Source: Candidatus Yanofskybacteria bacterium RIFCSPHIGHO2_01_FULL_41_26
Lineage (GTDB): Bacteria > Patescibacteriota > Minisyncoccia > 2-02-FULL-40-12 > GWA2-44-9
Assembly (NCBI GenBank): GCA_001794055.1
Contig: MGJB01000006.1
Span: 90,168 to 154,167 of the forward strand
Length of the DNA stretch: 64,000 nt
Reading direction: 5' to 3'
In this document: one piece after another, positions 2,465 to 53,706 of the stretch
How the letters are laid out: each line of letters opens with the position of its first letter
How positions within the stretch are numbered: position 1 is the stretch's first letter
Notes under the pieces: generated by a model
Told to the model about the DNA's origin: nothing
The model's input: only the letters and a program-made list of their open reading frames with translations
Database searches by the model: none
Position numbers and translations under genes: made by a program

Positions 2465-3624
2465 AGAGACTGGAAAAAATTATAAAATTTATTCGCCACA
2501 ACCTTATAACTGAAATTTTCTTCAACGTATCTTTTTCCGGCCTTCCCCAATTTATTTCTTAAGCCTTCATCTTTTCCCAGCCTTAACATGGCCTCAATCA
2601 AACCTTTTATATTCTCTGGTTCAACCAACAAGCCTGTCACTCCATCCAAAACAACCTCCTCAACAGACCCTGTCCGGGTAGAAATTACCGGCACTTCCAT
2701 TAACAATGCCTCGGCCATGGAATATCCGAATTGCTCCTCCCATCCGCCAAAAGAAATACTGGGATATAAAAAAACATGAGAAATAGACAAAAGTTCCCTA
2801 AGTCCAATAGGGTTAAGCCAAGAAATTTTTGTTATGTTGTCTTCTAGACCAAATTCAATTACCAGTTTCGATATTTCGTTTTCATATTCCCCCGTTCCGG
2901 CTATCATTAAATGGACATTCGGTAAAACAGAAAAAACCTGCTTAAAAGCACGGATTATATTGTGTATGCCTTTTCTGTATCCTATCGCTCCGGCAAAAGA
3001 AAAGACCAGCTTATTCTTGAGGCCATGGATTTTTAAAAACTCGTCAGCATCTACTTTGTGAAAAAAGTCTGCATCAACACCACTCATAGGAATAACGGCA
3101 ATTGGCTTCTTGGTCAAATTTTTAAATATTTTTTCAGCCTTGCGATTGCCGCAAATTATACCGTCAGATAATAACAGATTTAACTTTATGATAACTTTCT
3201 TTAATAAAAGATTTGGTCCCTTAAATTTATTCTCGTAAGGAATGTTCTCCCAAGTGAAAATGACATGCTTGAGACCTAAGAATTTAGACCAGAATGCTTG
3301 ATAAAGCGTGGTAATAAGAATAGGTTCGCTCGAACTATAAACAAGGTTAATCTTTTTTTTTCTCTTTAACCGCCACAAAATAAAAGGGAAAATAGGCATC
3401 CATCCCTTAAATAATCCCCCGATGACAGGGTAGTGGGAATGATGAAAATAGGCCTTGGCGCTGAACACATTTGAATCTTTTGACGGATAATAAACTATTT
3501 TGCCATTTTTAACTTTCCATGATTCCGGCAAAAGAAAAAAAATCTTGCCTTGAGCAGGATAGTGCCGCCATGTGTTAAAATAATTTTCTCTAATATAAGG
3601 AAAGCCAGCTATTAAAATATTCAT
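2461..3624 (-). CDS. glycosyltransferase family 1 (GT4)
   Basis: GWEEQFGYSMAEALLMEVPVISTRTGSVEEVVLDGVTGLLVEP motif. Four-nt overlap with neighbours indicates an operon. An A9 homopolymer (poly-T at 3352-3361 on plus) lies inside the CDS. Confidence 0.85.
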   Translation of the reverse strand: MNILIAGFPYIRENYFNTWRHYPAQGKIFFLLPESWKVKNGKIVYYPSKDSNVFSAKAYFHHSHYPVIGGLFKGWMPIFPFILWRLKRKKKINLVYSSSEPILITTLYQAFWSKFLGLKHVIFTWENIPYENKFKGPNLLLKKVIIKLNLLLSDGIICGNRKAEKIFKNLTKKPIAVIPMSGVDADFFHKVDADEFLKIHGLKNKLVFSFAGAIGYRKGIHNIIRAFKQVFSVLPNVHLMIAGTGEYENEISKLVIEFGLEDNITKISWLNPIGLRELLSISHVFLYPSISFGGWEEQFGYSMAEALLMEVPVISTRTGSVEEVVLDGVTGLLVEPENIKGLIEAMLRLGKDEGLRNKLGKAGKRYVEENFSYKVVANKFYNFFQSL

Positions 3625-9964: not shown

Positions 9965-10728
9965 TTGATAAACAAATTAAATCTAATTATATGCCAGATT
10001 GCCGCCAATCCATCTTTCCAATTTATCTTTTTACCGTCTTGATAAGTCCTGCCGCTATACGAAATTGGCACTTCAATAACTTTAAAATGTAACTTTCCGA
10101 TCCAAGCAGTTAATTCGGGATCAATACCAAATCTTTTGGATTTAAGATGGGGGTAGATTTGGTTTATTGAGTCCTTGGAAAAAACTTTATAGCAAGTGTA
10201 CATATCGGTTAGTTTAACTCCGCTTAAAATATTGGACATCCAGTTTAATGCCTGGCTGAACAGATAGCCACTTTTGTAAATAATTTTGTTTTTCTGTTCT
10301 GGTTTCATAAAACGCGAGCCATAGACAACATCGGCCTTGTTTTCTATTATGGGTGTTATCAGATTAGGGTATTCTTGCGGATTGTACTCAAGATCGGCAT
10401 CTTGAATTAAAATAATATCCCCCGCTGCCTCCTCGAACCCCCTTTTTGTAGCCGCACCTTTACCCATATTCTTATCTAAAAAAACGACATTATACTCCAC
10501 CTGTGGATAACCGACTTGCGAAGTCGGTATGTGGATAAGTTGATTTAGTATCTCTCTAGAGCCATCGGTTGATCCGTCATCAACTAAAATAATTTCTTTC
10601 TTGAGAGGCAAACTAACTGCCTCAACAGCATTGATTAATTTTCGCAAAGTTCTTTCTTCATTATAAACCGGGATAATGATGCTCAATTTTTTACAATCAA
10701 ATTCGTTCATAAATTTTAGCAAATTCAT
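9961..10728 (-). CDS. glycosyltransferase family 2 (dolichyl-phosphate hexose transferase-like)
   Basis: LSIIIPVYNEE...VDDGSTDGS...IQDADLEYNP GT-A DXD signature. Contains a degenerate in-frame REP copy at 10500-10540 encoding HIPTSQVGYPQV. Confidence 0.8.
   Translation of the reverse strand: MNLLKFMNEFDCKKLSIIIPVYNEERTLRKLINAVEAVSLPLKKEIILVDDGSTDGSREILNQLIHIPTSQVGYPQVEYNVVFLDKNMGKGAATKRGFEEAAGDIILIQDADLEYNPQEYPNLITPIIENKADVVYGSRFMKPEQKNKIIYKSGYLFSQALNWMSNILSGVKLTDMYTCYKVFSKDSINQIYPHLKSKRFGIDPELTAWIGKLHFKVIEVPISYSGRTYQDGKKINWKDGLAAIWHIIRFNLFIK
10500..10540. repeat. degenerate REP palindrome copy inside the GT2 CDS
   Basis: cctgtggataaccgacttgcgaagtcggtatgtggataag. The left arm and the stem ccgactt/aagtcgg are identical to the 39-bp REP at 26530, 37799 and 38548. 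The right arm is decayed. Confidence 0.6.
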
Positions 10729-24928: not shown

Positions 24929-26948
24929 TGAAATATTTACTTAAAAAATCTTTTGCCTGCGTATTGTTTTTATCCAATCTCACAGCTTCTTTGAAAAAGG
25001 CCTGGGCGTTTTCAAGCCGGCTTAAGTTCATATAAACCACTCCCAAAATAAAATAATATTGACTCTCTTTCAAGCCTAAATCAATCGCCATTTTTATATT
25101 TTCCGCCCCCAATTGCTGATTTTGTTTATCCGAGTAAGAAACGTGAATAAATCCTTTGTGGAGATAAGGATATGGATTTTTGGGATCAATTTTTATAACT
25201 TCATCGGCAAAATAAGCCGATGCTTCCAGCCAATCAATTTTAAACAAAACGCGTGACAAAATAAGATTTAGGTCGGCCTTGTTTTTATTTGAGTTTTTTA
25301 TATTAGCAGATATTTTATCTATGGCATTTTTATCAATAATGGAAAATTTAGAAATAACCCCGGTGTTTTTACTATTATTCTTAAGCAGAATGATTGCATC
25401 TTCGTTAATATAAACAATTTTCCAGTCCAGGTTTTTGGCAATATTTCTTAAAAAATTATCGGCCCAAGGCGTAACATCATTATATCCAAAAAATATGAAG
25501 TTGATGCCATATTTCCCTGAAAATTCAAGCCACTTTTTCTTATCCTCTTGCATCGGCTTATATGTCTCGCTAAAAAACTCAACCGAATATGCTTCTGGCC
25601 TGTTGTCAACAAAAACTTTCTCTTGGGGGTACAGCTGCCATATCAAATATCCTCCAATATCAAAATTATTAAACATTGGTCCTTTGATATTGTTTTGTTT
25701 GACAAAATCAACAGCTCTTTCCAGTCCATTCGGAACAGAAAAACCGGATACCCTGGAAACTCCCATATACCTGTAATATGTATTATTTGCCACAAAAAAA
25801 ATAAGCAAAATAATCAACGCGGAAAACAGAACTTTAAAAAAACTGCTCAATCTTTTAACTTGAGGTTTAACTTCAAGTTTATAGAGATTAAACCTCTGTA
25901 GAACATCTGCCAGTAGGATCGCCAATATCGGGAAAGACGCAAGCGCGTACAACGGCAAATTGCGTAACATCCTGAATCCAGCATACACAAAAAATGCCAT
26001 AGTAAGTATTTCAAAGACCCTTTGTTTCGATTTTTTTGCGGTCAGTATCAAAGAAATAACTAAAAGTACCACCGAAAGTTTAAAAATAAAAACCGGCAAA
26101 AGAAAACCTCTAAGGTTGGCCAGAAAAGAAAGGGTTTGATTCTCAACTATGTTGTATCCGTACTCGTTCAGCACTTTAAAGGGCAAAAGTGCACCTTGAA
26201 TTCCGTTCGGATTTATAAGTGTTGCCAAGCTGGTTAGTGATCCAATCAACACTATTCTGATAAGGTCCGACCTTTTAGAAACAAGCCGGTCTATGAGAAA
26301 TGCTAACAACAGAAATGGTCCGATAAAAAAATAAATGTGCAAATTTACCCAAAACAATTCCAAAATCGGCAAAAACCAGAGAAAAAAATAATTTTTTTCA
26401 TATTTTGCCTTTAATATAGCAAACAAGAAAAATGACAAAATGACGAAACTGAATATCTCCGGTCGGACTTCCGTTCGCTGGATAAATATGAACATTGAGA
26501 GAAGGAAAGATACTAAAAGAGACCAGAAACCTGTGGATAACCGACTTCGCAAGTCGGTTATCCACAGGTGTTTTATAGTAAAAAATAGTAACAAAAACGC
26601 AATCAGTACCAAGGCGGTTTTAACAAGAGTTAATCCGATAAATCCAAAGTAACTGAAAATACCAAAAAATATTACCTCGCTTAACCAGTGATGGTTGATA
26701 AAAGGGAAATCCGGCTCGGTAAAAGAAAATAAATTTGTCTTTGGAACCTCTTTTGTCTGCCAAATAATCTCGCCAACCTTAAGATGCCGACCGATATCTT
26801 GGCCGATAGTGTCAAAGTTGTGAATCAAAAAACTCCCCAAAAGTACAAAAATGAGAACAAATAAATAGTTTTTCTTAAGGAAGTACAACAATGGTTTTAC
26901 CATCGCATTGTTTTTCAAAAAGTTTGACATAGCCCCCTTCAGTAACAA
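24921..26948 (-). CDS. polytopic membrane protein with C-terminal TPR repeats (third paralog-like member of the array)
   Basis: Multi-TM N-terminal region. C-terminal TPR-like repeats (YFILGVVYMNLSRLENAQAFFKEAVRLDKNN). Contains an in-frame intact 39-bp REP (26530-26568) encoding HLWITDLRSRLST. Confidence 0.55.
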   Translation of the reverse strand: MLLKGAMSNFLKNNAMVKPLLYFLKKNYLFVLIFVLLGSFLIHNFDTIGQDIGRHLKVGEIIWQTKEVPKTNLFSFTEPDFPFINHHWLSEVIFFGIFSYFGFIGLTLVKTALVLIAFLLLFFTIKHLWITDLRSRLSTGFWSLLVSFLLSMFIFIQRTEVRPEIFSFVILSFFLFAILKAKYEKNYFFLWFLPILELFWVNLHIYFFIGPFLLLAFLIDRLVSKRSDLIRIVLIGSLTSLATLINPNGIQGALLPFKVLNEYGYNIVENQTLSFLANLRGFLLPVFIFKLSVVLLVISLILTAKKSKQRVFEILTMAFFVYAGFRMLRNLPLYALASFPILAILLADVLQRFNLYKLEVKPQVKRLSSFFKVLFSALIILLIFFVANNTYYRYMGVSRVSGFSVPNGLERAVDFVKQNNIKGPMFNNFDIGGYLIWQLYPQEKVFVDNRPEAYSVEFFSETYKPMQEDKKKWLEFSGKYGINFIFFGYNDVTPWADNFLRNIAKNLDWKIVYINEDAIILLKNNSKNTGVISKFSIIDKNAIDKISANIKNSNKNKADLNLILSRVLFKIDWLEASAYFADEVIKIDPKNPYPYLHKGFIHVSYSDKQNQQLGAENIKMAIDLGLKESQYYFILGVVYMNLSRLENAQAFFKEAVRLDKNNTQAKDFLSKYFNE
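26530..26568. repeat. REP palindrome (39 bp, perfect) inserted in-frame in a CDS
   Basis: cctgtggataaccgacttcgcaagtcggttatccacagg. Same sequence as the RAYT-flanking copies. Confidence 0.85.
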
Positions 26949-32583: not shown

Positions 32584-33160
32584 TTTAATTTTTTAATAAC
32601 TGAACTGGTGCCGTCGCTCTGACATATCTATATTTTTAAATTTCGATATGTCGAGTCAACCAACGCCAGAACAGGTTTTTAATAACACTAATTAACTGAA
32701 CTGACCGACCACAATATTTCTAAAGTCCACCTATTTCGACCTGGCAAATTTTAGAAGTGGTTTACAACTTTAAAACTTAATTTCATTTCTAATCTAAGCA
32801 TCAATTTTTTCTTGCTGTCCTGATTGTCAATGTCCTTTCATTGGACTGCCTGCCTCTATAGATATTTCGATATGTCTATCTACGATGTCAATATTTCGAA
32901 ATATCACTAAAGGCAGAAAGTCCGATATCTACTCAAAAAACGACCTGAAATTAGATCGATTACGAATCTTTTAATTCTTTAATTCTTCATATTTAATGCC
33001 GTTTAACGGCCAGTATTGTCCGCCAATACTACACAAAATACATTTGACAGTCAATGGTGACAAACCATGACTTCATAATAAGTATAAAGGTTATAATAAG
33101 GCCTGCAAGGGGTCAAGTGTGGATAAATCAGGCCATATTTTGGCGTAAAATCAAGGTTTA

Positions 33161-36100
33161 TTATTTGATACTCATTACCTTGCTGCCATACCCCCAAATA
33201 ACCCTATTTTCACTTAAAACCGGGGATATAACCGAGCTTACTCCCGTTGAAATGTGCCATCTCTCATTGCCGTCCTTATCAACGCCATAAACATCTCCCG
33301 ACTGGGTAGAGAAATAGGCACCGCCGTCTTTGTCTACTGCTATCTGTTGGTTTATTTTACCTTCGGCCTGGAATGACCAACTAACCGTAAGGTCAGATTT
33401 ATTAAGCGAGAAAAGTTTTGAACCGGAAGCAGGATTTGACCAGCTGTAATCTAAACCGACAAGAAGATTGGTCGGGGTAATTGAAACCATTGTTGCCCCC
33501 GAACCATTGCTGGCCGGTTCAATAACAGTCGTATTCAAAACAGAACCGTCAGGTGGAATGACGAACATTCTAAACCCGAAAGAAGAACCCCCATCATAAC
33601 CGATAGCCGAATAAGTCTTGCCTGTTGATTTGTCATGTGACGGATTCGACTGCATACTGCCATTGGCGCCGGTATAAGCCAAATCCCAAATTTTTGAGCC
33701 ATCAGACAAATATTTTGTAAAAAATTGATTACCGCTTATCCGTCTTGCCACAACACTATCGCCATTTTCAAGAACAATCGGAACAAAACCACTCAGGCCA
33801 GGATTACTGGCTTGGGTCTTTGTTGAGCCGCCTGTATTTAACACGACAAGCTTGTCGTTGCCGCTTGAATAGGTAAAATATGGTTCACCTTTTTCGGATA
33901 CAGTAAAAGCTTTGATCGTACTTGCATCATCATAATCCCATTTCTTGGTTCCGTCGGAATTAAGAGCCGTAAAAGCCAAAACTCCGCCAGCTCCGATACG
34001 GCCAAAATACACCACACCATCAGATAAGATTGCCGGGGTGCCAATACTGACATTGGTGGCGTATTCCCATTTTTGTACGCCATTTTTATCAAGTTTTATT
34101 AATTTTCCGGAACCGTTGGCCGAGCCGAAATAAATACCTCCGTCAGCTGAAACAACCGGCTGACCTACAGTATTTCCGGCTCCGGCATCAAATTCCCAGC
34201 TTATTGTTGCCCCAACACCCGGCCCCGCCAAACTAGCCGCAAAAGACGTGTGATATTGGTCTTTACCGAGCATAGACCAAGCCCCGTCGTCTATCGCGGA
34301 TGGGAAACTCACCTCGGCTATATTAGAAATATCTGAACACTTATCCACAGTTTCCCCATTACCGACTTCGCAAGTCGGTATGTTGATAACTTTTGTTTTC
34401 AGGGCAAAATAAAGTGTCTGGCCATAGTCATGGGCAATATCGGGAGTTACGATTTGCGATTCTCCCTCATTTCCGACGCTAGGCAAACTAGAGCTGGCTA
34501 CTTTTATTGCTAAATCCCAACTGGCGGAAGAAGGGAAACCGGTGAGCGAATATCGCAAATCGTAACTCAAACTGGCCGGACTGTAACCGCCTGGGTCGGG
34601 CGCCGACCATGAAATGGTAAGCGGTGAGTTGATGGTGGCCAATAAGTTGGTAACGGCTGATGGAGCTTGAGTTATAACATCAGCGCTATTCTGGGATTTA
34701 GGAGTTGATGTGGCGGTAATCCATCCGCCATCCATCCGTTGGGCAGTTTTTTTAGTGTCATTGTTGCCAATAATTTCGTCATTGCCGTTTATTTTCCACG
34801 CATTTGAACCATCAACTTGGTCAATTACAGTTCCGGAAATGTCTTTCAAAACTAAATTTTCTCCCGTATTGCCTAAAGCGCCGGTGTATATTTGGTCGGC
34901 ATCAATATCAGGCAACGTTTGATCATCGGTCCTTTCTAAGACATAAAAGCCAAACGGACTTATATTGCCAATCAGTGTTATGTCTGGCGTACCGTCTTTT
35001 GACTTAAGATTCCAATTGTTAAGATTTATGGTTTTGTTGGTGATGTTACGAAGTTCTATCCACTCATCGTTCGATAATGACGCTGAGGTTCCCATCCAAG
35101 CAATTTCGTTTAGGACAATGTCACCAAGATTGGCAGTGTCACCATCGGGTTCTGGTGACGGGATGGGTGACGGTGACGGCGATTGTGACGGAGTGGGAGT
35201 AGGAGTTGCTTGCGGTGAGCTTGTCGAATCCGGTGTCGAAGATGACCCGCCTCCTCCGCCGCCATATGAAACAATAACCTGAACCGCTGTGCTGTTTTTG
35301 GCTTTAGGCGTTCCGTTTATCAACCCGCCGGTTGCATCTTTATTTGTTGATGTCCCGGAAAAACTTTTCCAATTTGAGGCGCTATTACCGGCTTTCATCG
35401 AATCTATTCTCTCCATTGAATTCTTTGATGTTGAGTCACCGAAATACCATGCTTCACCCGTGCCACCAACCACATCTACCACAATGCCAATGCTATCAAA
35501 CAGTCTGATCATTTCGCCTGCATTGTTAAGGCCTCCTTGGCCAAAACCTGCAGCCAAATCAGCTGTTATATCGCTTACGGTATTATCATCTGTCCTCTCA
35601 ATTAAAAAATAGGAATTCGCTTGAATAATTGTCCCTTCCGAGAAAATAATATCAGGGGAATCATCGCTTGAAACCAACCGCCAACTGGATATGTCTATTG
35701 GGTTGTTTTCGGTGTTATAAAGCTCAATCCATTCATCTGTTGCAGAGGCATCCGTCCCCGCCCAGGCAATCTCGTTTATGACCACTGTGCCGAATTTCTT
35801 TGCTGTGGATAATTTTGGGATAGGAGATGGGGTTGGGGTAGTTGACAGCTTCGGTGTCGGTGCTGGTGTTTTTGATGGTGACAGAATAGGTGACACAAGA
35901 GGTGACACTATTGTGACACTGGTGACAGGTGTCTTTGTCACCAGTGGTGACGGTGACACTACTTGATTTGTCACCTTCGGTGTTGGTGTCACCATGTTGT
36001 CACCATCATTTGAGTTATCCACAATGTCATTATCGGTGCTAATTCCTATTAACCCCAGCAATCTTGCAAACCAGTTTTTCTCTAGCGGTTTATTGGCATA

Positions 36101-37798: not shown

Positions 37799-37837
37799 CC
37801 TGTGGATAACCGACTTGCGAAGTCGGTTATCCACAGG
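37799..37837. repeat. REP palindrome (39 bp, perfect), left flank of RAYT
   Basis: cctgtggataaccgacttgcgaagtcggttatccacagg. The loop is inverted relative to the right-flank copy. Confidence 0.9.
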
Positions 37838-37861
37838 TACACTTTGGCAATCCAACAAACT

Positions 37862-38536
37862 ATGGCAACTGAACAAAATTTTTACCACACGCTAAATAGG
37901 GGTGTCGAAAAACGTAATATATTCCTAGATAAGCAGGACCATTTTCGTTTTATTCACAATTTATATGAACTCAATAATGAAGATAGGGTTGATACCACCT
38001 TTCATTCTTTTAAAGAAGATCCGAATCTTACCGACTTCGCAAATCGGAAACAAAGAAAAATATTGGTAGACATTCTTGCGTTTTGTTTAATGCCAAATCA
38101 TTATCACCTGCTTCTTTCACCAAAAATAGAGGGTGGGGTTCCTAAGTTTATGAATAAGATAAACATTGGCTACGCAAAATATTTTAATAAAAAATATAAG
38201 AGAGTTGGAGCGTTGTTTCAAGGAAGATATAAAAAAATATTAATAGCAGATAATACTCACTTTCTCCACCTTCCTTTTTATATCCATTTCAATCCGCTTG
38301 ATTTAAAATATCCTGAATGGAGAGAAAATAGAATATTAAATGCTGAAAAAGCTTTAGGGTTTTTAAAATCCTATCGTTGGAGCAGCCATTTAGACTATTT
38401 GGGTGTTAAAAATTTTCCGTCGATTATAAATAATGGCTTACTTACAGAAATTTTTGACGGAAGTAAGGGTTACGAAAAACTGATTAATAATTACCTAAAA
38501 GATATTCAAATAGATCCAGAGGTTGCGTTAGAATAA
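37862..38536 (+). CDS. REP-associated tyrosine transposase (RAYT; IS200/IS605-like Y1 HUH transposase)
   Basis: HUH motif LMPNHYHLL. C-terminal ALFQGRYKKILIADNTHFLHLPFYIHFNP matches the RAYT W/FQxR(Y)...IRDE..L.....YIH.NP block with the catalytic Tyr. The ORF-track start (37802) lies inside the REP palindrome, so the start is placed at MATEQNF. Confidence 0.8.
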   Translation: MATEQNFYHTLNRGVEKRNIFLDKQDHFRFIHNLYELNNEDRVDTTFHSFKEDPNLTDFANRKQRKILVDILAFCLMPNHYHLLLSPKIEGGVPKFMNKINIGYAKYFNKKYKRVGALFQGRYKKILIADNTHFLHLPFYIHFNPLDLKYPEWRENRILNAEKALGFLKSYRWSSHLDYLGVKNFPSIINNGLLTEIFDGSKGYEKLINNYLKDIQIDPEVALE

Positions 38537-38547
38537 AGAATGGTAAC

Positions 38548-38586
38548 CCTGTGGATAACCGACTTCGCAAGTCGGTTATCCACAGG
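38548..38586. repeat. REP palindrome (39 bp, perfect), right flank of RAYT
   Basis: cctgtggataaccgacttcgcaagtcggttatccacagg. Confidence 0.9.
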
Positions 38587-38590
38587 TGGT

Positions 38591-39940: not shown

Positions 39941-40954
39941 TCAAAAAAAATTATTGAAGAGTCCTTTCGCTTTATCCCAAAATTCCGGATGGCCGTTTTG
40001 TTTCATCCAATACCACCATTCGGCGCCCCAAAGATAAAAAGTATCAAACCCGGTCTTTGAAGAGAAGCTTATCATCTCACCAAACTTGTCTATTCCCATT
40101 CTCTGTAACTGGATATCAATGGGCGTATCGATTATTGGCTGAAGCAACCATGGTTCGGCAGAAAGCTCGATAACCATTGATGGTTTTGTTCCATAAATCA
40201 AACGAGTTAAAGAGTGTTTAATTCTGAAAAAAGCTGGCGTTATCGGATACCGAAGAGGACCGATGGCATTTCTCCACCACACATAAAGATATATGCTAGT
40301 CCCAAACACATCGCCTTTTCTATATGCTTGATACCAAGTTCCAAATTCACCACTATCAGTAAGTATCACTGGATGAACGGGGTCCAACCGATGAACCAAA
40401 GCAATTTCTTCATCCAAAATTTCTGAAGCTTTCTCATTATGCTGTTCGCAAGAAGACCGGCTGAAAAATCTTAGAAAAATCTCGTTTTCAACTTGCCAAT
40501 ACCGCAAAGCTGGCGAATTTTTATACCTATTTACAACCTTTTCAATATATTTTACGAGCTCTTGTTTGTGTTGATCATGAGACAAAGGAACAACCCAATC
40601 TGGAGTATGGCACTCCGGCCAGCCGGGAAGCCGATGGCCAACAGCAATTATTACCGAAGCATTCCTCTTTTCAGCCTCTTGCACCTGAAAATCAAGTTCA
40701 GAAAAATTGTAAATACCCTCTTTCGGTTCAGTAAGAGGCCAATGGGCAACGAGTCGCAGATTTCTTACTTTTAAATCATCGAGAACAGCCAAATATGTTT
40801 TCTTCCAGTCAAGTTTTAACTCATTAGAATGAAAAACACTAAAAGAGACCCCGTATACAAAATTTTTTTCAGGAGACATGTCCCATGATAAAATCCAAAG
40901 AAAACTTAAAGCAGCAATAAAAACCCAAAGAATTATATTTTTTTTGTTGATCAT
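39941..40954 (-). CDS. membrane-anchored glycoside hydrolase (clan GH-A-like)
   Basis: N-terminal TM. YWQVENEIF (NEP-type catalytic acid motif) and aromatic-rich TIM-barrel-like composition. Family not resolved. Confidence 0.4.
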   Translation of the reverse strand: MINKKNIILWVFIAALSFLWILSWDMSPEKNFVYGVSFSVFHSNELKLDWKKTYLAVLDDLKVRNLRLVAHWPLTEPKEGIYNFSELDFQVQEAEKRNASVIIAVGHRLPGWPECHTPDWVVPLSHDQHKQELVKYIEKVVNRYKNSPALRYWQVENEIFLRFFSRSSCEQHNEKASEILDEEIALVHRLDPVHPVILTDSGEFGTWYQAYRKGDVFGTSIYLYVWWRNAIGPLRYPITPAFFRIKHSLTRLIYGTKPSMVIELSAEPWLLQPIIDTPIDIQLQRMGIDKFGEMISFSSKTGFDTFYLWGAEWWYWMKQNGHPEFWDKAKGLFNNFF

Positions 40955-41820
40955 CTGAATAACATCAAAAAACCAACGCCAATGAAAGATATTCCAAGAA
41001 GCTTTTTGATGAGTATTTTTCTGGTAATATTTTCGGCCACATCAGGAAATATCTTTCCGAAAATAAGGGCCAGAATAAATACAAAAGAAAACTGTACGCC
41101 CAAAAGAGCATTCACCAATGAAACATTGCCGAGTTGAATAGCGTAGTAAAGGGTCAAGAAACCAACCCCCGCGATAATCTTATTTAAAATAAACAGAAAA
41201 AGGGAGGACTGTGGAGCATTTTTCAAGGAATTTGAAATTTCCCCCCTTGCTCGCGGAAAAACAAGCATAAACAGAGACGAACCGACAAAACCTATCCGTG
41301 TCCAAAAAATACCATTAACAAAATCGGAATAATTAAACGTCCACTTGAGAAGAACCAACGAAAGGCCGAAAAATAAACCTGCCAAAATTGAATATCTGAA
41401 AATGTCCCGCCTGATCATGCCAAGAAACAAGATTCCTAAAACCAAAAACACAAAAGCCAATCCATTATTTGTTCCTAGTTTTTCTTTTAAAATAAAGACT
41501 GATAAAACATAAGTAAAAATCGCGCTTAAAGTAGCAACATTGATAGATGCCACCGACACATCGCTTAATTTTATAGATTTATAAAGAAAGAAAAGAGCAA
41601 TAAAAAAAGCTGTTCCCGATACGAACGAAATAAAAAAATATTGAACACCAAGCCAGGCCACTCCAAATGGAATTAAAACCACGGCAAGAATGCTCAAGAT
41701 AGAAACTCCGAATGCATAAGCAAACGGACGAGGGAGAGAAGAGGAGAGGAGATGCTTGTCGATTACGAAAGCAATTGCATTTACAAAATAAGCTGTTAAG
41801 GCGAGATAAATCCAAAGCAT
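40951..41820 (-). CDS. EamA/DMT-family transporter
   Basis: 10 predicted TM helices with two EamA-like halves. Confidence 0.65.
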   Translation of the reverse strand: MLWIYLALTAYFVNAIAFVIDKHLLSSSLPRPFAYAFGVSILSILAVVLIPFGVAWLGVQYFFISFVSGTAFFIALFFLYKSIKLSDVSVASINVATLSAIFTYVLSVFILKEKLGTNNGLAFVFLVLGILFLGMIRRDIFRYSILAGLFFGLSLVLLKWTFNYSDFVNGIFWTRIGFVGSSLFMLVFPRARGEISNSLKNAPQSSLFLFILNKIIAGVGFLTLYYAIQLGNVSLVNALLGVQFSFVFILALIFGKIFPDVAENITRKILIKKLLGISFIGVGFLMLFR

Positions 41821-41860
41821 GAAAATATTACTAATCTAAAATTATTAATTTATTATCTTG

Positions 41861-42129
41861 GAGCTAACGCTATGGATATTTCTCAGTCGCGATACCGGCA
41901 AATTGCGAGTGGCACAAGAAGCAACAACGAAGGTGTACTCATTGTACTCCGAGGAGGAGCGACGCAGTGTCCACTCGCAATTTGCCTTATCCCTCCTGGT
42001 TCTAGCTATTTTGTCCTATCGCTGCGTTACTTCTCGTCGCTGTAGTACCAACTACAACTTCCTTGAAGTGCCTGGCGCTAAGACAAAATAGCTAAGAACG
42101 CGACTGAGAAATATCCATAGCATTAGCTC
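41861..42129. mobile_element. MITE-like element (269 bp) with 31-bp terminal inverted repeats and nested internal inverted repeats
   Basis: Left TIR gagctaacgctatggatatttctcagtcgcg (41861-41891). Right TIR is its reverse complement with 1 mismatch (42099-42129). Internal ggcaaattgcgagtgg/ccactcgcaatttgcc pair. The right TIR encodes the last 10 codons (NAMDISQSRS*) of the GH1 gene. Confidence 0.55.
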
Positions 42130-43315
42130 TACATATTTTAGCATATTCAAAAGCCGAAGGACGAATTTTTCTGGCAAATGTCGCATAATCAATCTCAACT
42201 AATCCGAAACGCGGTCTAAAACCATATGCCCACTCGAAATTATCCAAAAGCGACCAGTATAAGTACCCTCGGATATCAACGCCGTCATGAATGGCCTGCC
42301 AAACCCATTTTAGATGTTCTTTTATAAATTTTCCACGCCGTTCGTCCTTGCTATCAGCAACTCCATTCTCGGTGATAAAAATAGGTTTTTTATACTTTTT
42401 AAGCTCCATGAGACGATGGTAAATACCTTTGGGATAGACGTCCCAATTCATTTCTGAGACAAAATCGACCCGCCGCAGTTCACGGGTGCCCGGCAAGCGC
42501 ACGGTCGTATAGTAATTTAAACCTATAAAATCCTGGTAGGGAAGAGTCTTATTCCAAAAGTATAAATTTACGAACTGATCCAAAAACTTTACTATTCCCT
42601 TGAACACCGGATGACTCATAATGTGTAAATTATTTTCAACTCCCCCAACGAGTGGTTCTATATTGTGCGACGTTGAATCATACAATCCTTGGTTTTTCGG
42701 TGAAACATCATAAACCCTCTTTATTTCCTGATAGGCGAGTGTATGCGACCGAACTATATTATTCCGAACCTTGATTGCTTTGAAAATATTATGTTTTTGC
42801 GGCGGCCATTGTCCTTTTAAATATGAGCCTCCGGCGTATATCCAAGGCTCATTAAAAGTTATCCACAGCCCTACTCTATCTTTTAAATTATCCACAACAT
42901 ACTTTACATATCTTGTAAATATTGTCGGACTATCAATGTTTAGGAATCCTCCTTTTTCGGCGAACCAGACGGGGTTAGTGAAATGCCAGAGAGTTATCAT
43001 CGGCTCAATCCCCCTCTCCTTCAAGGCCTTGACGACATTGACATAGTGATGCATAGCTTCATGGTCAAATATCCCCTCCTTCGGTTCTATGCGGGACCAC
43101 TCAATAGAGAAGCGGTGAATATTTTGATTTAAACTCTTAGCAATATCAAAATCTTCCTCGTAACGGTTGTAACTATCGCAGGCCTTTCCTGAACGAAATT
43201 CGGGCGGACGAGATTTCTCCCATTCGGACCAGTCATTGTAATTGTCTCCTTCTATCTGGTGGGCCGATGTGGTGCTCCCCCACTTGAATCCTTCAGGGAA
43301 TTGCATGTAAGACAT
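42092..43315 (-). CDS. GH1 beta-glucosidase/beta-galactosidase
   Basis: TFNEPW (acid/base) and ITENGVA (nucleophile) family-1 glycoside hydrolase motifs. Roughly 400 aa. Confidence 0.85.
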   Translation of the reverse strand: MSYMQFPEGFKWGSTTSAHQIEGDNYNDWSEWEKSRPPEFRSGKACDSYNRYEEDFDIAKSLNQNIHRFSIEWSRIEPKEGIFDHEAMHHYVNVVKALKERGIEPMITLWHFTNPVWFAEKGGFLNIDSPTIFTRYVKYVVDNLKDRVGLWITFNEPWIYAGGSYLKGQWPPQKHNIFKAIKVRNNIVRSHTLAYQEIKRVYDVSPKNQGLYDSTSHNIEPLVGGVENNLHIMSHPVFKGIVKFLDQFVNLYFWNKTLPYQDFIGLNYYTTVRLPGTRELRRVDFVSEMNWDVYPKGIYHRLMELKKYKKPIFITENGVADSKDERRGKFIKEHLKWVWQAIHDGVDIRGYLYWSLLDNFEWAYGFRPRFGLVEIDYATFARKIRPSAFEYAKICRANAMDISQSRS

Positions 43316-43413
43316 GCTTTAATTCTAACCTTAAAAAACCCTTCGGCAAAGCACTTCGGCTGTGAGCTCAGTGTCGAACAGCTCAAGGTAAACAAAAAAC
43401 GGGTATTGCCCCG

Positions 43414-45907: not shown

Positions 45908-46001
45908 ACTTTATGGTAGTTTACAAAAAGTGATGATTGTGGCTAAGAAGAACGTTCGGAGGCTACCCCGGGCCGAGATAGAGCAAAAACCCAGCAGAGT
46001 T

Positions 46002-46505
46002 TTATGTGTTCTTCGCGACACGATCATCACTTTTTGTAAGTCCTGCTTTTTTGAATTCTGTTAATTTAACTCCAGTCTTTTTGGACAAAGTAAGGACGGC
46101 TTTAGATGCCTCATAGCGAGACATATAAAAATTACCGTAAACAACCTCTTTTATTCCTGCATTGACCATCACTTTAAAACAATCATAGCAAGGTGAAATA
46201 GTCAGATAAATTGAGGCGCCTTCAATAGGAGTTCCATTCTTGGCCGCTTGGGCTATAGCATTAGCTTCAGCGTGAGCCGTTCTGATGCAATGTCCGTCAA
46301 TAATTTCATGGCCGATATCATCACAGTGGGCCAAACCTCGGGGGGCACCATTATATCCGGTCGACAAAATTACTTTATTCTTAGCAATCACAGCTCCGAC
46401 ATGAGCGCGGTCGCAAGTTGAACGCTTCGCAACCACTTTTGCTATTTCAAGAAAATACTCATCCCAAGACGGTCTTTTGTTGAGTTTCGATTTCGGCTTT
46501 GGCAT
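46002..46505 (-). CDS. dCMP deaminase (cytidine/deoxycytidylate deaminase family)
   Basis: HAEANAI...PCYDCFKVMVNAGIKEVVY zinc-binding H(A)E...PCxxC motif. Confidence 0.85.
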   Translation of the reverse strand: MPKPKSKLNKRPSWDEYFLEIAKVVAKRSTCDRAHVGAVIAKNKVILSTGYNGAPRGLAHCDDIGHEIIDGHCIRTAHAEANAIAQAAKNGTPIEGASIYLTISPCYDCFKVMVNAGIKEVVYGNFYMSRYEASKAVLTLSKKTGVKLTEFKKAGLTKSDDRVAKNT

Positions 46506-53656: not shown

Positions 53657-53706
53657 AATACAATGGGGGTCTTTGTATAAATGTATACAAAGACCCCCAT
53701 TGTATT
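53657..53706 (-). terminator. 23-bp perfect hairpin (likely terminator of 53801..54181)
   Basis: aatacaatgggggtctttgtata-aatg-tatacaaagacccccattgtatt. A T-rich run follows on the minus strand. Also lies in the hppA upstream region. Confidence 0.45.

What the first reader, a model, noticed from the sequence alone, without database searches (positions are those of the whole stretch)
41861..42129. MITE-like element whose terminal inverted repeat supplies the C-terminus and stop codon of a GH1 beta-glucosidase
31-bp TIRs (1 mismatch) bound a 269-bp non-coding element with further nested inverted repeats, located between the GH1 gene and the EamA transporter gene. The right TIR (42099-42129) is read as the last ten codons (NAMDISQSRS-stop) of the glycosidase. 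So either the element inserted into the gene's 3' end and created a new C-terminus, or the TIR has been recruited as coding sequence. The 77-aa ORF inside it (41858-42091) is probably not real.
Basis: seen in the sequence. Interest (0 to 1): 0.6.

Follow-up and report, generated by a model that had tools for sequence, protein, structure and literature searches.

The report
Small mobile palindromic element in GH1
A 269-bp non-coding, hairpin-forming mobile DNA element has inserted into the last codons of a beta-glucosidase gene in a candidate-phyla-radiation bacterium, giving the enzyme a new tail and stop codon; it belongs to a family of such elements that matched no Rfam model and no paper I could find.

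Summary
A 31-nt inverted repeat with one mismatch bounds 41861-42129, and two inner hairpins lie inside it.

Six orthologous GH1-EamA loci have the two genes overlapping or 10-92 nt apart. The window has 271 nt there, and DNA homologous to the native GH1 3' end survives just beyond the element. So this is an insertion that replaced the last ~9 codons. The stop codon lies in the inner hairpin, not in the repeat itself.

No second copy is in the window. A sensitive protein search on the spurious 77-aa ORF led to related elements at unrelated sites in other CPR bacteria. These include Candidatus Azambacteria and two 97%-identical copies in a related Yanofskybacteria locus.

The family shares one T-shaped fold. 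41 of 103 predicted pairs show compensatory changes. The interior sequence blocks are conserved and the arms vary. In six of eight copies the flanks read T-A/G. In two copies, removing the element plus one TA restores the host reading frame.

Best reading: a MITE-type non-autonomous transposon that duplicates TA. The mobilising enzyme is unknown. It is not in Rfam. The kind is known but the family appears new. Effects on mRNA processing are inferred only.

The parts
41861..42129 (.). The inserted element, bounded by the inverted repeat (269 bp). It is non-coding.
   Evidence: It is absent from six orthologous loci. It is homologous to elements in L015, L016, L020, L021, L022 and L006.
41861..41891 (.). 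Outer arm proximal to EamA. It pairs with 42099-42129.
   Evidence: In the family alignment, 19 of 31 outer-stem pairs show compensatory changes.
42099..42129 (.). Outer arm proximal to GH1. It is read on the minus strand as the codons (R)ANAMDISQSR of GH1.
42092..42121 (-). New GH1 tail AMDISQSRS plus the TAG stop, supplied by the element. The stop at 42092-42094 lies in the stem of the inner hairpin.
   Evidence: None of 59 orthologue C-termini inspected has this tail.
41897..41986 (.). Inner hairpin B, with a perfect 16-bp stem. Its interior carries the conserved purine-rich blocks 41915-41933 and 41949-41967. AGGAGGAG.GA is invariant in all eight copies.
   Evidence: Ten of 24 stem pairs covary.
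41988..42001 (.). Central junction TATCCC...GGTT. In other family members it forms a small covarying hairpin (CCCTTCGGG, CCCCTCGGGG, CCCGAAGGG).
42003..42094 (.). Inner hairpin A, with a 20-nt stem. Its interior carries the conserved pyrimidine-rich blocks 42020-42040 and 42055-42072, and the invariant tip stem GTAG...CTAC at 42042-42055.
   Evidence: Seven of 23 stem pairs covary.
41831..41860 (-). Displaced native GH1 3' end, CAAGATAATAAATTAATAATTTTAGATTAG. It reads (Q)DNKLIILD-stop in the GH1 frame. The native EamA leader TAATATTTTC follows it.
   Evidence: It aligns with L012 (TGTAGGGATAATAGATTAATT...) and with L006 (...ATTAGTAATTTTTTCATGCTTTGG).
41859..41860 (.). Flanking dinucleotide TG. 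Its partner is TA at 42130-42131. These positions are TA/TA, TA/TA, TG/TG, TA/TG and TA/CC in the other five copies of this subfamily, so this is a candidate 2-bp target-site duplication.
42092..43315 (-). GH1 beta-glucosidase gene (407 aa), whose 3' end was hit by the insertion.
40951..41820 (-). EamA-family transporter gene. In relatives it overlaps or abuts GH1; here it is separated from GH1 by the element.

Best explanation
This is one copy of a family of about 270-bp non-coding, palindromic, non-autonomous transposable elements (MITE type) found in Patescibacteria/CPR genomes.

Shown:
- It is an insertion into the last codons of GH1.
- It replaces the native tail with AMDISQSRS-stop.
- It pushes EamA 271 nt downstream of GH1. 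In relatives EamA overlaps or abuts GH1.
- Relatives of the element sit at unrelated sites in other genomes and in two copies in a related locus.
- All share a T-shaped fold: a roughly 31-bp outer stem plus two long hairpins. The stems covary. The conserved sequence lies in the hairpin interiors, as four copies of a GGAGCGACG-like motif, two in each orientation.

Inferred:
- It moves as DNA by a transposase supplied in trans that targets and duplicates a TA dinucleotide.
- The conserved interior motifs are that enzyme's binding sites.
- In this operon it is co-transcribed and forms a very stable RNA structure. That structure uncouples EamA translation from GH1, and may be cut by RNase III or protect the GH1 message.
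- Insertions survive at gene ends because the arms carry usable stop codons or start codons.
For: Insertion:
- GH1-EamA spacing is -4, -4, -4, 10, 17 and 92 nt in six orthologous loci, against 271 nt here.
- Native 3'-end DNA persists after the element.
- The tail is unique among the orthologue tails inspected.

Family:
- A HMMER search with the spurious ORF found four proteins. Their loci carry homologous elements between ScpA and ScpB, before a histidine kinase, before a DoxX gene and before an MFS gene.
- A further copy lies after an RRF gene.
- nhmmer found two copies, 97% identical to each other, in the related locus L006. At both positions the window has no copy, and at the first its spacer is only 12 nt.
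- Mean column identity in the alignment is 75%.

Structure:
- 92.8% of cells are paired.
- 41 of 103 pairs carry compensatory changes, against 18.4 in shuffles (0 of 500 reach the observed value) and 4-10 when partners are slid.

Non-coding:
- No homologues in word-index protein searches of the translated frames.
- About 50% amino-acid identity at 64-73% nucleotide identity; L006 copies have stops in all frames.

Target duplication:
- Flanks read T-A/G on both sides in five of six copies of this subfamily and never as the inverted CA.
- In L016, deleting the element plus one TA restores an ATGA stop/start overlap and a kinase of unchanged length (638 aa). In L021 the same deletion restores a continuous 434-aa MFS reading frame. 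Deleting the element alone, or the element with both TAs, does not restore either.

Precedent: MITEs that overlap gene 3' ends and supply tails and stop codons are documented (PMC5896051, PMC10969869).
Against: - No second copy is in the 64-kb window. The rest of the source genome could not be searched, because neither large DNA collection returned the source contig.
- This copy's flanks are TG/TA, not a perfect duplication. A TA-duplication model predicts a 271-nt insertion, whereas keeping the homologous native frame needs 270 or 261 nt.
- No transposase gene or full-length parent element with matching ends was found.
- The ends are the least conserved part of the family and the interior is the most conserved. 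That is the reverse of what a transposase reading terminal repeats would predict.
- Pairs of near-identical copies differ almost only in the outer 13-15 nt of both arms (L006a/b 8 of 26 against 0 of 243; L015/L022 11 of 29 against 4 of 235). This is not explained.
- Only eight copies were available.
Confidence: 0.72

Rival explanations
1. It is a mobile element recognised by shape and moved through a single-stranded intermediate, in the manner of REPIN/RAYT or IS200/IS605-derived elements. A folded T-shaped strand would be cut and joined by an HUH (Y1) enzyme, or copied by a polymerase that re-templates the ends at each insertion.
For: - The stems covary while their sequence is free.
- Single-stranded DNA would fold strongly.
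- The outer arms differ between otherwise identical copies.
- There is no clean duplication at this copy.
- In L006a, removing exactly the repeat-bounded 270 nt restores the 12-nt spacer seen in three relatives, which implies no duplication there.
- A RAYT-like Y1 gene with its own flanking palindromes lies about 3.3 kb away.
Against: - The RAYT's palindromes share no evident sequence with the element.
- No Y1 gene is called within 4-5 kb of the L015, L016, L020, L021 or L022 copies.
- The two inner hairpins are unlike each other, whereas IS200/IS605 ends resemble each other (my own knowledge).
- The T-A/G flanks and the frame restorations in L016 and L021 favour a 2-bp duplication.
- An imperfect 7-8-nt direct repeat that would fit end re-templating is only marginal (combined P = 0.03).
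Confidence: 0.17
2. It is a cis-acting structured RNA belonging to the operon: an EamA leader, a riboswitch, a processing site or a terminator.
For: - The fold is extremely stable on the gene-sense strand, where the arm mismatch becomes a G-U pair.
- It lies within an operon.
- Structure is conserved across the family.
Against: - It is absent from all six orthologous GH1-EamA loci.
- Relatives sit beside unrelated genes and in both orientations relative to transcription.
- No Rfam family matches.
- No terminator-like or promoter-like site lies at the element or in the EamA leader.
Confidence: 0.03
3. It is an intervening sequence removed from the transcript, so that the native GH1 tail, still intact and in frame downstream, is restored.
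For: - The displaced native codons remain open in the GH1 frame, which implies an insertion length divisible by three (270 or 261 nt).
- In L006b, removing the repeat-bounded 268 nt restores an orthologue-like N-terminus, MEEWIFPEG.
- The long stem brings both junctions together.
Against: - No group I or group II intron or ribozyme match, even at E = 10.
- Several copies lie outside coding sequence (L006a, L022).
- Copies occur in both orientations relative to transcription.
- The repeat-bounded unit here is 269 nt, and removing it does not restore the frame.
- In-frame length has a one-in-three chance.
Confidence: 0.04
4. It is an assembly artefact, such as a chimeric inverted duplication.
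For: Long perfect palindromes can arise from amplification or assembly errors.
Against: - The sequence is identical in JGI, NCBI and ENA assemblies made with different assemblers; 11 contigs carry this GH1 protein, whose tail is read from the element.
- Homologous elements occur in unrelated samples.
Confidence: 0.01

Closest known systems
Bacterial MITEs that overlap gene ends: QMITE1/QMITE2 of Coxiella burnetii, and Correia elements of Neisseria
   Same: - Small, non-coding and bounded by inverted repeats.
- Fold into stable stem-loops.
- Multi-copy.
- Sit at gene boundaries and supply C-terminal residues and stop codons (PMC5896051).
- Correia transcripts are cut by RNase III at the repeats (PMC10969869).
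- Correia elements duplicate TA (my own knowledge).
   Different: - No sequence similarity.
- The host is a CPR bacterium.
- The fold is T-shaped with two long inner hairpins.
- The conserved sequence is interior rather than terminal.
- Copy number seen so far is low.
ERIC and similar long imperfect palindromes of enterobacteria
   Same: - Transcribed palindromic repeats.
- Substitutions preserve pairing (my own knowledge).
- They can alter stability of the host mRNA (PMC10969869).
   Different: - ERIC is about 127 bp and forms one hairpin.
- It is enterobacterial.
- No homology was detected.
Rickettsia palindromic elements (RPE)
   Same: Palindromic selfish DNA tolerated inside protein-coding genes, altering the protein (PMC10969869).
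   Different: - RPEs are read through in frame as extra peptide segments.
- This element carries stops in the host frame and truncates or replaces the tail.
REPIN/RAYT systems and IS200/IS605-derived palindromic elements
   Same: - Hairpin-forming repeats with little or no target duplication.
- A RAYT-like gene with flanking palindromes is present in the same window.
   Different: - The RAYT's palindromes are a different sequence.
- REPINs are about 100 nt and consist of two inverted REPs (my own knowledge).
- The flanks here suggest a 2-bp duplication.

Membership tests
[quoted passage not shown] | Length under about 500 bp with no coding capacity | tested here: met
   It is 269 bp. The ORFs are compositional: no homologues in word-index searches, about 50% amino-acid identity at 64-73% nucleotide identity, and stops in all frames in the L006 copies.
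[quoted passage not shown] | Terminal inverted repeats | tested here: met
   31-nt arms with one mismatch. All eight family copies have arms of 23-36 nt.
[quoted passage not shown] | Multiple copies or different insertion sites, with presence/absence at orthologous sites | tested here: met
   - Two copies in L006.
- L015 and L022 are 98% identical in the interior at different loci.
- Presence and absence differ between the window and L006 at three sites.
- Only one copy is in the 64-kb window, and the rest of this genome was not testable.
[quoted passage not shown] | Target-site duplication flanking the repeats | tested here: inconclusive
   - The window copy has TG/TA.
- Perfect 2-bp repeats occur in L016, L021 (TA) and L020 (TG).
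- Frame restoration in L016 and L021 works only with one TA kept.
- L015 has TA/CC.
- L006a fits zero duplication.
[quoted passage not shown] | A parent insertion sequence with the same ends and a transposase | not testable with these tools
   - None is in the window or fetched loci.
- The whole-collection scans used the variable arm and returned only chance hits.
REPIN/RAYT | The element is built from the REP sequence that flanks the RAYT gene | tested here: not met
   The RAYT-like gene (37844-38536) is flanked by CCTGTGGATAACCGACTT...AAGTCGGTTATCCACAGG. The repeat search did not group this palindrome with the element, and no shared sequence is evident.
IS200/IS605-derived palindromic elements | Similar subterminal hairpins at both ends, no terminal inverted repeats, no duplication | tested here: not met
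   It has long terminal inverted repeats. The two inner hairpin stems are unlike each other.
Group I / group II introns and known ribozymes | Match to the Rfam covariance models | tested here: not met
   There is no hit beyond chance microRNA, lncRNA and snoRNA matches at E up to 10, for the window copy, L015 and L006.
Cis-regulatory leader or riboswitch of EamA | Conserved upstream of orthologous genes in a fixed orientation | tested here: not met
   It is absent from six orthologous loci. Family members lie beside unrelated genes in both orientations.
Rickettsia palindromic elements | In-frame read-through as an inserted peptide segment | tested here: not met
   The GH1 frame meets a stop 30 nt into the new sequence, and further stops follow.

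The most novel reading that the evidence does not exclude
The family is a mobile element defined by structure rather than by its ends. On this reading a T-shaped single strand (DNA or RNA) is the transposition intermediate, and the conserved interior motifs are the recognition sites. The outermost 10-15 bp of the arms would then be re-made or re-selected at each insertion. That would explain why otherwise identical copies differ only there, and always in a compensated way. It would be a new transposition style, found in the reduced genomes of CPR bacteria.
Probability: 0.15. Interest if true: 0.7.

Novelty: new member of a known kind. Interest (0 to 1): 0.4.

Why it matters
CPR/Patescibacteria genomes are small and tightly packed, and I found no description of MITE-like repeats in them.

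- This family shows that such genomes still carry active selfish DNA.
- It survives by landing on gene boundaries and supplying replacement start or stop codons.
- It breaks assemblies: contigs start or end at copies.
- It is annotated as 'hypothetical protein' in public records.
- Its strong covariation means a structure-based scan could mistake it for a functional RNA gene.
- Its conserved interior motifs give a handle for finding the enzyme that moves it.

Tried and rejected
Searches that found nothing useful:
- Exact 20-mer scans of the arm in genome, metagenome and viral collections gave only chance hits in coding sequences of unrelated organisms. Neither large collection returned the source contig.
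- Three further viral scans with inner-hairpin and outer-arm patterns, and one with the conserved core, found nothing.
- blastn against phages and plasmids found nothing.
- Word-index protein searches with the 77-aa ORF, and with the open stretches of the other five frames joined, found nothing.

Ideas I held and then dropped:
- I first thought the right arm was native GH1 coding sequence, because NAMDIS resembles the N-x-L-E-I-S tails of orthologues. The orthologous loci showed a real insertion with the native 3' end displaced downstream.
- I explored whether one outer arm is target DNA and the other an inverted copy made by snap-back synthesis, with a 7-8-bp duplication. The repeat is only marginal (P = 0.03), and the outer arms are homologous between copies at different loci, so I dropped it as the main model.
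- The alternative rod-like fold is the minimum-energy structure in four copies. Its interior helices show almost no covariation.
- I tested whether the two inner hairpins are duplicates of each other. There is only weak similarity between one interior and the reverse complement of the other (z about 2.6).
- A covariance model of the whole element was not built, because a model of about 270 positions would probably exceed the calibration limit.

Full report
**What is there.** The window is part of contig MGKG01000028.1 of assembly GCA_001794675.1, and NCBI names its GH1 protein as from Candidatus Yanofskybacteria. The inverted repeat is as described: 41861-41891 pairs with 42099-42129, 31 nt with one mismatch, and 207 nt lie between the arms. 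Two further repeats lie inside. One is 16 nt and perfect (41897-41912/41971-41986). The other is 20 nt at 90% (42003-22/42075-94).

The region folds as a long closing stem carrying two long hairpins. The energy is -149 kcal/mol on the gene-sense (minus) strand and -139 on the plus strand. Both lie more than 13 standard deviations below shuffles. As single-stranded DNA it gives -77 kcal/mol, z = -12.6. The sequence is identical in three independent assemblies. No Rfam family matches, even at E = 10. The arm has no other match in the window, and blastn and nhmmer find no second copy in the 64 kb.

**It is an insertion into GH1.** Six orthologous loci keep the gene order FKBP - GH1 - EamA - GH, in some with one extra gene between FKBP and GH1. 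In these loci the GH1 stop overlaps the EamA start in three cases. It lies 10, 17 and 92 nt upstream in the others. The window has 271 nt.

Orthologue tails read ...EYAKIC[KR]xNxL... followed by a few residues. None has AMDISQSRS.

Directly after the element, on the gene strand, comes CAAGATAATAAATTAATAATTTTAGATTAG TAATATTTTC ATG (41831-41860 and leader). This aligns with L012 (TGT AGG GAT AAT AGA TTA ATT, that is CRDNRLI). It also aligns with L006 (...ATT AAA AAT TAG TAATTTTTTC ATGCTTTGG). So the native 3' end and the EamA leader were displaced, not lost.

The stop codon now used (42092-42094) lies in the stem of the inner hairpin, not in the 31-nt repeat.

Two reconstructions of the native tail fit about equally well:
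- ICR|DNKLIILD-stop, a 270-nt insertion, which fits L012.
- ICRAN|QDNKLIILD-stop, a 261-nt insertion, which fits L006's CKANQLD...ELMIKN-stop.

The exact junction is therefore uncertain by a few bases.

**It belongs to a family.** Searching for the arm sequence failed. Both large collections returned only chance hits and did not return the source contig.

A full HMMER search with the 77-aa plus-strand ORF found four proteins of 87-119 aa at about 50% identity. One is a 'hypothetical protein' of Candidatus Azambacteria. Their loci carry homologous elements of about 270 bp at these positions:
- between ScpA and ScpB (L015);
- between a 236-aa gene and a histidine kinase (L016-L019);
- before a DoxX gene (L020);
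- before an MFS gene (L021).

A variant in the same 90% protein cluster lies after an RRF gene (L022). An HMM built from the alignment then found two more distant copies in locus L006, from another Yanofskybacteria assembly (1868-2137 and 2744-3013). These are 97% identical to each other. They sit on either side of the FKBP gene, at positions where the window has no copy.

So presence and absence differ between the window and L006 at three sites. Two contigs start or end at a copy (L007, L022), as expected at assembly breaks caused by repeats.

**Anatomy of the family.** Mean column identity in the five-sequence alignment is 75%. Interior identity of the window copy to the others is 64-73%, and about 45% to the L006 subfamily.

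The conserved parts are interior:
- a CGCGATA junction;
- two purine-rich blocks in one hairpin (CAAGGAGCGACGACG and GAGGAGGAGCGACGCAG);
- two complementary pyrimidine-rich blocks in the other hairpin;
- a small central hairpin;
- an invariant GTAG...CTAC tip.

The stems vary but stay paired. 92.8% of cells are paired. 41 of 103 pairs carry compensatory changes, against 18.4 in shuffles (0 of 500 reach the observed value) and 4-10 with slid partners. These comprise 19 of 31 pairs in the outer stem, 10 of 24 and 7 of 23 in the two hairpin stems, and five in the two short tip helices.

A rod-like alternative, in which the purine blocks pair with the pyrimidine blocks, is the minimum-energy fold in four copies. 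It shows almost no covariation in those helices.

G-U against A-C mismatches give no consistent strand preference. Copies lie in both orientations relative to the host genes. The data therefore do not say whether the selected structure is in RNA or in single-stranded DNA.

The ORFs are not genes:
- amino-acid identity is about what neutral drift at 64-73% nucleotide identity gives;
- several frames are open in the GC-richer copies;
- the L006 copies have stops in every frame.

**How it moves.** This part is inferred. In the six copies of the window's subfamily, the two bases outside the repeat are as follows:

| Copy | Left flank | Right flank |
|---|---|---|
| Window | TG | TA |
| L015 | TA | CC |
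| L022 | TA | TG |
| L016 | TA | TA |
| L020 | TG | TG |
| L021 | TA | TA |

Where a G occurs, the other side is never the inverted CA. These therefore behave as direct repeats, not as extensions of the inverted repeat.

In L016, deleting the element plus one TA gives GTTGAA-ATGA-ATACTACACTG. This restores a stop/start overlap and a kinase beginning MNTTLRTK..., still 638 aa like the present one, which begins MRFTLRTK. In L021, the same operation joins an upstream ORF to the MFS gene as one 434-aa frame. In both loci, deleting the element alone, or the element with both TAs, breaks the frame.

This points to a transposase that duplicates TA. From my own knowledge that is the habit of IS630/Tc1-mariner elements and of some IS5-group elements.

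Four observations argue against a simple version of this:
- The window copy needs an extra 1-nt change to fit.
- L006a fits zero duplication (12-nt spacer restored).
- No parent element was found.
- The ends are the least conserved part of the family.

Pairs of nearly identical copies differ almost only in the outer 13-15 nt of both arms. L006a and L006b differ at 8 of 26 outer positions, all compensated, against 0 of 243 interior positions. L015 and L022 differ at 11 of 29 against 4 of 235. Both give p of about 1e-9. Three explanations are possible, and I could not separate them:
- gene conversion that cannot reach the edges of a repeat;
- insertion into small palindromic target repeats (the L006 copies can be read as a 244-bp core with TA or AT duplications inside 22-24-nt palindromes);
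- some re-templating of the ends at insertion.

**What it does here.** This part is also inferred. The operon transcript must now carry a structure of about -148 kcal/mol whose 5' arm is the end of the GH1 reading frame.

Shown consequences are a changed GH1 tail and the loss of the tight GH1-EamA junction. The last conserved helix, ...SAFEYAKIC, is intact.

No terminator-like or promoter-like site lies at the element or in the EamA leader. Cutting of the 31-bp duplex by RNase III, or protection of the GH1 message, is plausible by analogy with Correia and ERIC elements (PMC10969869) but is untested.

In three copies that landed at a gene's 5' end (L016, L021, L006b), the downstream arm provides an in-frame ATG. 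The window copy provides a stop. This fits survival of only those insertions that keep the host gene expressed.

**Comparison and verdict.** MITEs that overlap gene 3' ends and donate tails and stop codons are well documented (QMITE1/2; review). What appears new is the family itself. It is not in Rfam. It has no phage, plasmid or viral-contig relatives. I found no paper describing MITE-like repeats in CPR bacteria. Its T-shaped, strongly covarying fold and conserved interior are unusual enough to merit a proper genome-wide census. That census would also settle how the element moves.

Noticed in passing
window 37799-38587; also 26529-26568, 10492-10546, 34358-34392, 38028-38047: A Y1 (HUH) transposase gene at 37844-38536 has REP-associated tyrosine transposase as its best NCBIfam match, below cut-off (42.6 against 80 bits). 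It is flanked on both sides by a perfect 39-40-nt palindrome, CCTGTGGATAACCGACTT...AAGTCGGTTATCCACAGG. Further full or partial copies lie elsewhere in the window, one of them inside the 1304-aa ORF. This looks like a RAYT/REP system in a CPR genome.
   Followed up: partly
L006 4213-4232 (GH1 3' end); also proteins P0035, P0056, P0033, P0039: A perfect 20-nt GC-rich palindrome, CCTGCCTGCCGGCAGGCAGG, sits in frame in the L006 GH1 tail and is read as LPAGRQ. Similar PAGRQ, PVGRQ or PAGGE segments interrupt other GH1 orthologues at another position. These look like small palindromic insertions tolerated inside coding sequence.
   Followed up: no
L006 2733-3015 and window 43290-43330: The second L006 copy overlaps the GH1 start. 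Its outer arm contains ATGTCTTACAT, which is also the start of GH1 in the window (MSY...), although the window has no element there. Removing the repeat-bounded 268 nt in L006 restores an orthologue-like start, MEEWIFPEG. Either an ancestral copy was later deleted in the window's lineage, or the arm copies the flank.
   Followed up: partly
L016 5001-5273 (protein P0122 = OGD31292.1 and others); L015, L020, L021, L022: Public annotations-119-aa 'hypothetical proteins' across these elements. They are almost certainly spurious ORFs.
   Followed up: yes
L007 positions 5-57; L022 end of contig (4292): Contigs start or end inside or next to copies of the element. This is consistent with assembly breaks at a repeated sequence.
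   Followed up: no
window 45921-46039; 32840-32926; 53657-53706: Other local inverted repeats unrelated in sequence to the element: a 119-nt unit with 21-nt arms at 95%, a unit with 34-nt arms at 79%, and a perfect 23-bp hairpin with a 4-nt loop.
   Followed up: no
protein cluster of P0121 (alignment A3); L015 left arm l14 / right arm r10: Among 14 near-identical variants, the two residues encoded by one base pair of the outer stem (K/N and S/F, at the centre of a CTTAAG site in each arm) occur in all four combinations. This suggests recurrent change or recombination at that pair.
   Followed up: no
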